IMG/VR virus record: IMGVR_UViG_3300028991_000009
Coordinates: 1-13,495 of that record
Direction: 5' to 3' (one strand)
Length of the DNA stretch: 13,495 nt
Source: a virus
Taxonomy: Duplodnaviria; Heunggongvirae; Uroviricota; Caudoviricetes
Shown here: positions 12,868-13,495 of the stretch, piece after piece
Layout of the letters: the number at the start of each line of letters is the position of its first letter
Numbering within the stretch: the stretch's first letter is position 1
Position numbers and translations under genes: made by a program
Notes under the pieces: model-generated
The model's input: only the letters and a program-made list of their open reading frames with translations
Databases searched by the model: none
What the model was told of the DNA's origin: nothing

Positions 12868-13495
12868 TTTCCACCTCCTGCATCCCGCCCACGTTTTGCA
12901 GCCAGAGTCCAGCCTGATGAATGAGCTTCTCCGGGCTTATCACCGGTCATACTGTTGCAGTGCCACAACGAGCCCCCCCACGTCACCGTATCGCCGGGGT
13001 GGTAAGTTTCGCCGGTTCTGAACACACCACGGTAGAGCATCACCGGCAGGGAAAATGTTTTTTCCGTACGATGGCCACTGCTCTGCCGGACCACCACAGA
13101 GAACAACCGCTCACCCGTCATACTGACGTCAATATCCGCCACCCCGTCAACCAGGCATTCCCATCCCCGCATCCCGTGCGTTTTTTCATACGCCCGCCAG
13201 AGTCCTCCAAGGTGTGTGGCATACGTGCCCCGGGGAAAGGATTTTTGATCGTCAATGGCGGGGAGTATTTCCAGTGCCGTGGCATCACGCCCGTCCTGCG
13301 GAGCCGGCAGGGCACTCACCGCCTCCAGAACCGCCTTCTGCAGAACATCCGGATCGTAGTCACGACCATCACGCGGAACAGGAATATGGCTTACCGCCTC
13401 CTTCACCATCTGTTCAAGCATCGGACGCACATCATCGGGGGTGATACTTTTGCCGTCTGCCGGTACCGGTATTTTTCCGACGGCATCATTCACCG
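12864..13495 (-). CDS. Hypothetical head-region protein with three tandem ~25-aa repeats; probably truncated at its N-terminus by the window end
   Basis: The frame is open from the window edge to the stop at 12864 and is coupled to the connector gene by an ATGA overlap. Repeats IPVPADGKSITPDDVRPMLEQMVKEAVSH / IPVPRDGRDYDPDVLQKAVLEAVSA / LPAPQDGRDATALEILPAI. I recognise no family. Confidence 0.55.
   Translation of the reverse strand, partial: VNDAVGKIPVPADGKSITPDDVRPMLEQMVKEAVSHIPVPRDGRDYDPDVLQKAVLEAVSALPAPQDGRDATALEILPAIDDQKSFPRGTYATHLGGLWRAYEKTHGMRGWECLVDGVADIDVSMTGERLFSVVVRQSSGHRTEKTFSLPVMLYRGVFRTGETYHPGDTVTWGGSLWHCNSMTGDKPGEAHSSGWTLAAKRGRDAGGGK

What the first reader, a model, noticed from the sequence alone, without database searches (positions are those of the whole stretch)
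13254..13472. Three tandem ~25-aa repeats in an unassigned head-region protein
The partial ORF upstream of the connector contains three imperfect repeats, consensus roughly [IL]P[VA]P.DG[KR]D..P.D, followed by a Trp/Gly-rich C-terminal domain. It does not resemble a major capsid protein C-terminus. It could be a decoration, cement or scaffold-related protein, or an additional insertion in the head module.
Basis: seen in the sequence. Interest (0 to 1): 0.45.

Follow-up and report, generated by a model that had tools for sequence, protein, structure and literature searches.

The report
Fibre-like head protein mislabelled as portal
The three repeats are real, but they are the tail end of a longer repeat array in a widespread, unstudied phage head protein (a probable fibre ending in a sugar-binding-type fold) that databases call "portal protein" only because a one-base change fuses it to the true portal gene in some E. 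coli prophages.

Summary
ORF 12864-13493 runs off the window end. It holds three significant repeats (29, 25 and 21 aa, motif [IL]PxPxDG[KR]) followed by a 127-aa Trp/Gly-rich C-terminal domain (CTD).

Related loci give the full gene. It is a conserved gene between the HK97-type portal and the gp6-like head-tail connector, overlapping both at stop/start. The protein has an N-terminal amphipathic helix, a shaft of 1 to more than 25 helix-plus-PxPxDG units, and a strongly conserved beta-rich CTD ending in a CBM5/12 (chitin-binding) fold. Distant relatives have true collagen triplets in place of the shaft.

The family is large (5,739 clusters at 50% identity) and has no Pfam or NCBIfam model.

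In E. coli, shaft length follows 299+54n aa (a 162-bp unit). A G5/G6 run just upstream of the start codon decides whether the gene is separate (G5, 55 loci) or fused in frame to the portal (G6, 28 loci). That explains the "861-aa portal" and "frameshifted portal pseudogene" annotations.

Outside E. coli the gene is separate in about 130 of 132 loci.

The function is inferred. Most likely it is an accessory trimeric virion fibre on the head. An internal portal-tethered protein or a capsid decoration protein is not excluded.

The parts
13473..13493 (-). Last 7 residues (VNDAVGK) of an earlier B-type repeat unit. The ORF continues upstream beyond the window end.
   Evidence: Translation. It matches '...QKAVNDAVAK' at the end of B units in YYZ-2008 gp54.
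13386..13472 (-). Repeat A (29 aa): PxPxDG linker plus an amphipathic helix (IPVPADGKSITPDDVRPMLEQMVKEAVSH).
   Evidence: AF2 predicts a helix at residues 19-34. Hydrophobic pattern.
13311..13385 (-). Repeat B (25 aa): IPVPRDGRDYDPDVLQKAVLEAVSA.
   Evidence: A-B score 59, 0 of 5000 shuffles reach it. AF2 predicts a helix at residues 48-60.
13248..13310 (-). Repeat C, the shaft-to-knob junction (21 aa): LPAPQDGRDATALEILPAIDD. Its 'DGRDA' aligns with the end of the collagen G-X-Y run in distant homologs.
12867..13247 (-). Conserved beta-rich C-terminal domain (127 aa, pI 9.3) with the family-wide motif YRGV..G..Y..GDTVTWGGSLWHC...T..KPG....W.LAAKRGRDG.
   Evidence: Alignment A1 gives the invariant and near-invariant columns. 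AF2 pLDDT is about 87-93 for residues 110-200. dN/dS is about 0.17.
12879..13046 (-). Terminal CBM5/12-fold (chitin-binding-type) subdomain, aa about 150-205.
12864..12867 (-). GTGA overlap: the module's TGA stop overlaps the GTG start of the connector gene (translational coupling downstream).
12541..12867 (-). gp6-like head-tail connector (adaptor) gene, the conserved downstream neighbour.
   Evidence: Pfam Phage_connect_1, E=1e-7. Conserved neighbour.

Best explanation
SHOWN. The repeats belong to a separate, conserved head-module gene that lies between the HK97-type portal gene and the gp6-like adaptor gene. Its start overlaps the portal stop (ATGA and similar overlaps). In the window and in YYZ-2008 its stop overlaps the adaptor start by 4 nt.

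The protein is modular:
- an N-terminal amphipathic helix;
- a shaft of alternating 29- and 25-aa units, each a short amphipathic helix plus an [IL]PxPxDG[KR] linker;
- a strongly conserved beta-rich C-terminal domain that ends in a CBM5/12 fold.

In distant relatives genuine collagen G-X-Y triplets take the place of the shaft.

Shaft length changes by gain or loss of a 162-bp (54-aa) unit. In E. coli a G5-to-G6 change, 11 nt upstream of the start codon and inside its Shine-Dalgarno-like stretch, fuses the gene in frame to the portal. This produces the '861-aa portal protein' of the databases.

INFERRED. The protein is most likely a trimeric accessory fibre carried on the phage head, at or near the portal vertex, made in step with the portal. 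Its conserved sugar-binding-type end either contacts a widely conserved glycan (weak, reversible adhesion that helps adsorption) or docks the fibre on the shell. The repeat shaft acts as a spacer of freely variable length.
For: Separate gene and synteny:
- L003, L005 and L006, plus phages FSL SP-016, RHph_X2_26, PAJU2, BP-4795 and Lys8385Vzw.
- About 57 of 80 species-level loci have the order MCP, portal, module, connector, and only one of them is fused.
- The portal-baited set has the module in 73 of 75 loci, with 0 of 74 fused.
- Start/stop overlaps are conserved in at least 53 of 57 unfused loci.

Fusion mechanism:
- G5 means separate (55 loci) and G6 means fused (28 loci), each on several haplotype backgrounds.
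- The Salmonella junction alignment shows the net 2-nt difference.

Architecture and family size:
- 5,739 clusters; members are mostly 250-500 aa, with the CTD at the C-terminus and 1-13 repeat matches.
- Collagen-containing homologs.

Fold:
- AF2 model with a confident CTD.
- BFVD neighbours are collagen/CBM fibre proteins.
- Weak tail-fibre PHROG hits over the tip.

Length ladder: 299+54n aa.

Purifying selection: dN/dS is about 0.17 in both the G5 and G6 states.

Precedents: SPP1 gp12 is a non-essential collagen-like trimeric capsid protein (PMC6316719). Lactococcal neck passage structures carry CBMs, and one neck CBM binds host cells (PMC6669499).
Against: - No virion proteomics, structure or genetics exists for any family member in the sources searched. 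Presence in the virion, oligomeric state and location are all inferred.
- The CTD is the most conserved part and is never swapped for another tip. That is unusual for a host-specific receptor binder. It fits better with a universal ligand or with a phage partner such as the capsid shell.
- In-frame fusion to the portal C-terminus would put the module inside the capsid, because portal C-termini face the interior (general knowledge of portal structures, not tested here). Such fusions are nevertheless tolerated in E. coli, in L149 and in P0222.
- The CBM_5_12 score for the window sequence is below Pfam's cut-off, and no sugar binding has been shown.
- Mini-versions of the protein sit next to MCP or protease genes, and one locus has a protease::domain fusion. 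These hint at a capsid-directed role for the domain.
Confidence: 0.45

Rival explanations
1. Internal, portal-tethered head protein. The N-terminal helix docks on (or, in G6 alleles, is covalently joined to) the portal crown inside the capsid. The thin shaft and small basic CTD lie in the DNA-filled interior. The protein helps organise or retain the DNA end, or it is ejected ahead of the DNA, and the CBM5/12-type domain then binds the peptidoglycan glycan backbone, a ligand common to all hosts.
For: - The gene is translationally coupled to the portal in nearly all loci.
- Independent in-frame fusions to the portal C-terminus occur (E. coli G6 alleles, L149, P0222).
- The fused alleles stay under purifying selection.
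- The CTD is invariant across hosts from E. coli to Sphingomonas, and the module is never absent from this portal clade.
- The CTD is basic, pI 9.3.
- A protease::domain fusion exists in L163, and proheads package their protease internally.
Against: - Fusions are rare outside E. coli (1 of 58 and 0 of 74). They arise trivially from 1-nt indels at overlapping stop/start codons.
- The shaft is acidic (pI 4.3) and its length varies from about 0 to more than 25 units, which is odd for a packaged internal component.
- The structural neighbours are external fibre proteins.
- No precedent is known to me for a collagen-like protein inside a capsid.
Confidence: 0.2
2. Capsid decoration or head-fibre protein in many copies (closest to the first reader's idea). 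Trimers bind the expanded shell at hexamer centres or threefold sites, through either the conserved CTD or the N-terminal helix, and the rest of the protein projects outward. This resembles SPP1 gp12, phi29 gp8.5 or T4 Hoc.
For: - It is the last gene of the head module, before the connector.
- Mini-versions (helix plus terminal domain, 106-134 aa) lie directly after small MCP genes in compact capsid-encoding elements with no portal gene in the retrieved flanks.
- The CTD co-occurs strictly with this capsid/portal clade.
- Collagen-like trimeric capsid binders exist (PMC6316719).
- A purine-rich Shine-Dalgarno (AGAGGA or AGGGGG) could drive high, portal-independent expression.
Against: - In the main context the gene follows and overlaps the portal gene, not the MCP gene.
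- No similarity to any known decoration family was found in Pfam, PHROGs or the PDB.
- Copy number and capsid binding are untested.
Confidence: 0.2
3. Assembly-only factor. It acts as a tether that links the portal (through the N-terminus) to the inner face of the shell or to the protease-MCP fusion (through the CTD), so that procapsid assembly nucleates on the portal. It is then removed by the prohead protease.
For: - Position between the portal and connector genes, with coupling to the portal.
- A protease::domain fusion and protease-adjacent mini-proteins.
- Strict co-occurrence with a clade whose MCP is fused to its protease and scaffold.
Against: - Extreme shaft-length variation, collagen segments and a CBM fold are not features of known scaffolding or nucleation proteins.
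- The scaffold-like coiled coil is already present in the protease-MCP fusion.
- No cleavage sites were identified.
Confidence: 0.1
4. The database view: the repeats and CTD are a genuine C-terminal domain of an unusually long portal protein, and the unfused copies are frameshifted pseudogenes.
For: GenBank, RefSeq and PHROG annotations. The ORF is in frame in 28 E. coli-type loci.
Against: - The portal domain ends at about residue 388.
- The module is a separate gene with its own ATG and SD in about 130 non-E. coli loci and in 55 E. coli-type loci.
- Stand-alone homologs start exactly at the internal Met of the fused form.
- The induced, EM-verified phage Lys8385Vzw carries the unfused allele. 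BP-4795 also carries the unfused allele.
Confidence: 0.03

Closest known systems
CBM5/12 chitin- or cellulose-binding domains (Pfam PF02839; e.g. Serratia ChiB, S. griseus ChiC ChBD, Erwinia EGZ CBD)
   Different: The window sequence scores below the cut-off (19.4 bits). The domain is embedded in a phage head-module protein, not a glycoside hydrolase. The ligand is unknown and binding is untested. Whether the ligand-binding aromatic residues of characterised CBM5/12 domains are retained was not checked.
Lactococcal neck passage structure (NPS, collar/whisker) proteins and T4 fibritin (neck whiskers)
   Same: They are accessory fibrous proteins at the head-tail junction. NPS proteins carry CBMs, and one neck CBM binds host cells (PMC6669499). 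They have a conserved attachment end and a repetitive or coiled shaft.
   Different: There is no sequence similarity. NPS genes sit at the end of the tail module and have exchangeable distal domains, whereas here the tip is fixed and the gene sits between portal and adaptor. The statement about fibritin rests on my own knowledge and was not tested here.
SPP1 gp12 (collagen-like capsid accessory protein) and phi29 gp8.5 head fibre
   Same: They are non-essential, trimeric, collagen-like or coiled-coil auxiliary head proteins encoded within the head gene cluster (PMC6316719). Distant family members here have true G-X-Y runs.
   Different: gp12 is 64 aa with no globular domain and is encoded next to the MCP gene. 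This family has an N-terminal helix, a helix-PxPxDG shaft and a 127-aa beta domain, and it follows the portal gene. No homology was detected. The phi29 comparison is from my own knowledge.
HK97-type portal protein (PF04860 / TIGR01537)
   Same: In G6 alleles the module is covalently joined to such a portal, and it inherits the name 'portal protein' in GenBank, RefSeq and PHROGs (phrog_1289, phrog_2271).
   Different: The module has no portal domain. It is a separate gene in the great majority of loci.
Phage tail fibres with a collagen shaft and a CBM/ChiC_BD tip (BFVD neighbours; phrog_5073)
   Same: Same overall design and the same terminal fold.
   Different: Here the gene is encoded in the head module, strictly next to the portal. 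The shaft in Enterobacterales is helix-PxPxDG rather than collagen.

Membership tests
HK97-type portal protein (PF04860 / TIGR01537) | Presence of the portal domain (wing, stem, clip, crown) in the polypeptide | tested here: not met
   The window's 209 aa hit only CBM_5_12. In the fused homolog the portal domain is confined to residues 45-388. Stand-alone family members have no portal hit in Pfam or NCBIfam.
HK97-type portal protein (PF04860 / TIGR01537) | The extension is part of one gene with the portal across relatives | tested here: not met
   The gene is separate in 55 E. coli-type loci, in about 57 species-level loci and in 74 of 74 portal-baited loci.
CBM5/12 carbohydrate-binding module (PF02839) | Sequence match above Pfam's gathering score | tested here: inconclusive
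   Window 19.4 bits and YYZ-2008 20.3 bits, both below 26.2. Homolog P0123 scores 29.8 bits, above 26.2. Other homologs score 22.8-24.8 bits.
CBM5/12 carbohydrate-binding module (PF02839) | Small beta fold of the chitin-binding domains | tested here: met
CBM5/12 carbohydrate-binding module (PF02839) | Binding of chitin, cellulose or related glycans through exposed aromatic residues | not testable with these tools
   Y154 and W195 are invariant, and Y164, W172, W177 and H178 are nearly invariant.
Collagen triple-helix repeat proteins (PF01391) | Runs of G-X-Y triplets | tested here: not met
   The window and E. coli sequences have no G-X-Y runs. Distant homologs do: P0100 scores 26.8 bits against a cut-off of 27.2, and several hits carry a precomputed PF01391 annotation.
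Phage capsid decoration or cement proteins (lambda gpD, Soc, Hoc, Dec, SPP1 gp12, etc.) | Homology to a described decoration family | tested here: not met
Phage capsid decoration or cement proteins (lambda gpD, Soc, Hoc, Dec, SPP1 gp12, etc.) | Binds the outside of the mature shell at defined lattice positions | not testable with these tools
   This needs virion proteomics or cryo-EM. The only indirect hints are the MCP-adjacent mini-versions.
Scaffolding proteins | Helical protein encoded with or before the MCP, present in proheads and absent from virions | tested here: inconclusive
   The gene lies after the portal, not before the MCP. A coiled-coil scaffold-like segment already lies within the protease-MCP fusion. 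The CTD is all-beta. Virion presence is untested.
Programmed ribosomal frameshift products (T7 10A/10B, lambda G/GT type) | Slippery site and stimulatory structure conserved among relatives | tested here: not met
   The G-run is E. coli-specific. Other lineages read AGAGGA, AAAGGG or similar at the same place. The downstream RNA fold has z = -2.1 only. Slippage in E. coli itself cannot be excluded.

The most novel reading that the evidence does not exclude
The family is a previously unrecognised class of portal-coupled head protein, with no counterpart among the phages I compared it with (HK97, lambda, SPP1, T4, phi29, lactococcal phages). It would be either a fibre mounted at the portal vertex of Gram-negative siphophages, or a portal-to-shell or portal-to-periplasm tether whose invariant CBM5/12-type domain recognises a universal ligand such as peptidoglycan glycan or the capsid lattice. 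In E. coli Stx-type phages a G5/G6 switch (possibly helped by -1 slippage on AGG-GGG-ATA) would set how many portal subunits carry the module covalently.
Probability: 0.15. Interest if true: 0.75.

Novelty: new variant of a known kind. Interest (0 to 1): 0.5.

Why it matters
1. Annotation. More than a thousand complete E. coli genomes (1,245 of 5,426) and many Stx-converting phages carry this gene under the wrong name. PGAP marks the ancestral, intact two-gene arrangement as a 'frameshifted portal pseudogene'. PHROGs propagates 'portal protein' to stand-alone members. This distorts prophage-intactness calls for STEC phages.

2. Biology. A family of several thousand sequence clusters, strictly linked to one portal/capsid clade across alpha-, beta- and gamma-proteobacterial phages, has no described function, no curated model and no structure. 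It combines an unusual helix-PxPxDG (or collagen) shaft with a nearly invariant sugar-binding-type domain. Finding where it sits would add either a new accessory adhesin to Gram-negative siphophage heads or a new portal-associated internal component.

3. Assembly. The 162-bp repeat ladder probably explains the many 'partial' database entries, where contigs end inside this gene.

Tried and rejected
- TRF on the window found no DNA tandem repeat. The repeats in the window are detectable only at protein level.
- The search for homologous proteins with the CTD returned only proteins of 221 aa or fewer, so it could not show full-length architectures. The representative search and locus retrieval were used instead.
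- P0082 looked like a fusion of the CTD with the gp6-like connector. Reading the sequence shows a frameshift artefact. The NCBI name 'gp6-like head-tail connector, partial' for the Klebsiella fragments is therefore not evidence of a real fusion. Those entries are contig-end fragments.
- The programmed -1 frameshift idea was rejected as a conserved feature. The slippery G-run is not conserved and the downstream RNA structure is weak.
- Exchangeable-tip test. Portal-baited retrieval found no alternative distal domains, so the 'host-specific receptor-binding tip' version of the fibre model was downgraded.
- The first dN/dS computation was wrong because a 2-aa indel misaligned the codons. It is discarded in favour of the codon alignment.
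- PDB sequence search found no solved homolog.
- Literature searches found no functional study. The phage 2851 paper could not be retrieved, so the infectivity of a G6 phage rests only on my recollection.
- MCP C-terminus and protease-scaffold linker were rejected, because those lie in a different upstream gene.

Full report
**Observation**

All genes in this window run on the minus strand. ORF 12864..13493(-) has no in-frame stop up to the window end. It translates to 209 aa:

VNDAVGK | IPVPADGKSITPDDVRPMLEQMVKEAVSH | IPVPRDGRDYDPDVLQKAVLEAVSA | LPAPQDGRDATALEILPAIDD | a 127-aa C-terminal domain (CTD).

- The three units (A 13386-13472, B 13311-13385, C 13248-13310) are significantly related. 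A-B scores 59 against 19.2 +/- 4.2 for shuffles (0 of 5000 reach it). A-C and B-C give p about 2e-4.
- The motif [IL]P[VA]P.DG[KR] occurs three times, whereas only 6 of 200,000 shuffles contain a single copy.
- The CTD has 3.9% Trp and 15.7% Gly.
- The downstream ORF 12541-12867 is a gp6-like head-tail connector (Phage_connect_1). Its GTG start overlaps the TGA stop as GTGA.

The ORF is, however, truncated by the window, and the leading 'VNDAVGK' is the end of an earlier unit.

**The full-length gene**

Megablast finds the region in 1,245 of 5,426 complete E. coli genomes and in 92 phage records, mostly Stx-converting phages. There it is annotated as the 3' part of a 'phage portal protein'.

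In YYZ-2008 the gene order is: TerS; TerL; a 645-aa Peptidase_S78::Phage_capsid fusion; a 73-aa ORF; an 861-aa 'portal'; adaptor; head closure protein; and onward.

The 861-aa protein has these parts:
- An HK97-type portal domain confined to residues about 45-388 (PF04860 E=7e-81; TIGR01537 E=2e-104).
- A Ser/Gly/Asp-rich linker, then a coiled-coil-like stretch.
- An array in which A and B units alternate. At DNA level this is a 162-bp tandem repeat, 3.7 copies at 97% identity.
- Unit C and the CTD.

**It is a separate gene that is sometimes fused to the portal**

- Distant relatives of the CTD are small proteins (135-216 aa) with an N-terminal amphipathic helix, collagen G-X-Y repeats, a 'DGRDA' junction and the same CTD.
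- In their genomes the protein is a separate gene right after a normal 457-458-aa portal, within the same unusual head-gene order (L003, L005).
- A closely syntenic Salmonella prophage has a 478-aa portal and a separate 220-aa gene that overlaps it by 8 nt (L006).
- Cultured phages FSL SP-016, RHph_X2_26 and PAJU2 also have two genes.
- Stand-alone enterobacterial homologs begin M-[NTD]-[ED]-R-E-[LI].... This is exactly the internal Met455 of the YYZ-2008 protein (MTERELSIIRALGEE). The junction alignment shows a net 2-nt difference between Salmonella and YYZ-2008.
- In 80 IMG/VR E. coli-type loci plus reference phages, the state is set by a G-run in ...ATGTTCAGGGGG(G)ATACTGAGAAAATGACG... .
  - G5 gives two genes, with the portal TGA overlapping the module ATG as ATGA. 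This is found in 55 loci on many haplotypes, including BP-4795 and the induced, EM-verified siphophage Lys8385Vzw.
  - G6 gives the in-frame fusion. This is found in 28 loci on at least 5 haplotypes, including YYZ-2008, phage 2851 and phi330.
- PGAP labels G5 copies 'frameshifted' portal pseudogenes. That label is an annotation artefact.
- Measured from the ancestral Met, the module is 299, 353, 407, 461, 515 or 569 aa long, that is 299+54n.
- The CTD evolves under purifying selection (dN/dS about 0.17) in G5-G5, G6-G6 and G5-G6 comparisons. Three identical CTD alleles occur in both states. An earlier estimate was a misalignment artefact and is discarded.

**Breadth and synteny**

- An exhaustive HMMER search of 1.84 billion representatives gives 5,739 clusters at E<=1e-3 and 533 at E<=1e-30. 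Most are 250-500 aa, with the CTD at the extreme C-terminus and 1-13 repeat matches. Portal fusions are rare.
- In one-genome-per-species data, about 57 of 80 loci show protease/MCP, portal, module, connector. They come from Enterobacterales, Pseudomonas, Caballeronia/Paraburkholderia, Rhizobiales, Sphingomonadales and others. Only Brevundimonas L149 is fused.
- The module start overlaps or abuts the portal stop in nearly all of them: ATGA 25 times, a -5 overlap 11 times, TGATG 9 times, and so on.
- The G-run is not conserved. The same position reads AGAGGA or AAAGGG in other lineages. These are the Arg-Gly codons of the portal tail, and they double as the module's Shine-Dalgarno.
- When loci are retrieved with the portal as bait, so independently of the CTD, 73 of 75 loci with enough downstream sequence carry the module with the same CTD. 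One exception is cut by a contig end, and none of 74 is fused.
- The module is therefore a fixed partner of this portal/capsid clade, and its tip is not exchangeable.

**Structure and family assignment**

- No Pfam or NCBIfam model covers the module.
- PHROGs calls the stand-alone form 'portal protein' (phrog_1289), evidently by transfer from the fused genes.
- CBM_5_12 is hit around threshold: 19.4 bits for the window and 29.8 bits for P0123, against a cut-off of 26.2.
- An AF2 model built on a 33-sequence alignment predicts two repeat helices (residues 19-34 and 48-60) joined by extended PxPxDG linkers at low confidence. It predicts an all-beta CTD with pLDDT about 87-93 for residues 110-200.
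- Foldseek against viral models returns mostly 'collagen triple helix repeat', ChiC_BD and CBM5/12 phage proteins and tail-fibre-like proteins.
- No solved structure contains a full homolog.
- The shaft is acidic (pI 4.3) and the CTD is basic (pI 9.3).

**Interpretation**

The identity and evolution of the feature are well supported. The function is inferred.

The design is that of a trimeric phage fibre: an N-terminal helix, a length-variable shaft that is interchangeable with collagen, and a small sugar-binding-type terminal fold. It is encoded as the last head gene, and its start overlaps the portal stop. In the window and in YYZ-2008 its stop also overlaps the adaptor start by 4 nt.

I therefore favour an accessory fibre on the head, at or near the portal vertex. 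There are functional precedents:
- Lactococcal neck passage structures carry CBMs (PMC6669499).
- SPP1 gp12 is a non-essential collagen-like trimeric capsid protein (PMC6316719).

Three observations keep the rival models alive:
1. The CTD, not the N-terminus, is the most conserved part, and it is never swapped. This points to a universal ligand (for example a GlcNAc-containing glycan such as peptidoglycan) or to a phage partner such as the shell.
2. In-frame fusions to the portal C-terminus are tolerated and remain under selection. Portal C-termini are known from portal structures to face the capsid interior (my knowledge, not tested here).
3. Mini-versions (helix plus terminal domain, 106-134 aa) lie directly after small MCP genes in compact capsid-encoding elements. 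One locus has a protease::domain fusion.

An internal portal-tethered protein, a high-copy decoration protein and an assembly-only tether therefore remain possible. The database reading, a genuinely long portal, is contradicted.

A conserved programmed frameshift is not supported. Slippage on AGG-GGG-ATA in E. coli cannot be excluded.

**Comparison, novelty and score**

- The closest known things are CBM5/12 domains (fold), collagen/CBM tail fibres (design), NPS/fibritin and SPP1 gp12/phi29 head fibres (role), and HK97 portals (neighbour and occasional fusion partner).
- The protein is not a member of any described portal, decoration or scaffold family (see the membership table).
- I rate it a new variant of a known kind, with moderate interest (0.5). 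It is a very large, unnamed and systematically mislabelled family in medically relevant Stx phages, with an unusual shaft repeat and a neat 1-nt fusion switch. Its mechanism is unproven.

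Noticed in passing
window 4463-5599 (-): A full-length Gram-negative porin gene (378 aa, Pfam Porin_1 E=1e-143) is inserted inside the tail-tip operon, between gpM (5802-6143) and gpL (3566-4264). The M-porin-L arrangement recurs in 89 of 5,426 complete E. coli genomes, where PGAP calls it 'ompC'. It is a prophage moron that could alter host surface or phage susceptibility.
   Followed up: partly
window 9442-9855 (-): A 137-aa predicted lipoprotein (signal peptide ending in the lipobox LTGC, no Pfam hit) is inserted between the tail chaperone T part (9919-10200) and the tape measure gene (6136-9411). It is found at about 91% identity in only 5 complete E. coli genomes. 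It might be a superinfection-exclusion-type moron.
   Followed up: partly
L156, L160, L161, L166, L171; L153, L154, L163 (around 5.2-7.2 kb in each locus): The terminal ~55-aa CBM5/12-like domain also occurs in 106-134-aa proteins (N-terminal helix plus domain) directly after small (316-369 aa) HK97-type MCP genes. These sit in compact clusters that include HNH- and small-terminase-like ORFs (judged by eye from their sequences) and have no portal in the retrieved flanks, so they may be capsid-encoding satellites. The domain also follows S78 proteases, and in L163 it appears as a protease::domain fusion.
   Followed up: partly
L002 5060-6997 (YYZ-2008 gp52) and equivalents in L003, L006, L010, L176: The 'major capsid protein' of this phage clade is a single 645-664-aa fusion of prohead protease (Peptidase_S78), a coiled-coil segment and an HK97-type capsid domain. 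It is encoded before the portal gene, which is an inverted head-gene order relative to HK97. In some lineages (L005, L115-L126) protease and MCP are separate genes.
   Followed up: partly
L008, L009 (Klebsiella) and many 'partial' entries: Many database entries for this protein are contig-end fragments. In L008 and L009 the contigs end inside this gene, probably because assemblies break at the 162-bp repeats or in multi-copy prophages. NCBI names the Klebsiella, Salmonella and Enterobacter fragments 'gp6-like head-tail connector protein, partial', which is a second misnomer.
   Followed up: partly
window 10613-11329 (-): The major tail protein carries a C-terminal Ig-like domain (Ig_3, Ig_2 and I-set hits), a common accessory adhesion domain on siphophage tails.
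   Followed up: no
P0222 (1237 aa): This is a portal fusion whose shaft consists of about 25 copies of a different unit (helix plus LPEPEPLPDI) in place of PxPxDG, followed by the same CTD. It shows that the linker motif of the shaft can be replaced wholesale.
   Followed up: no
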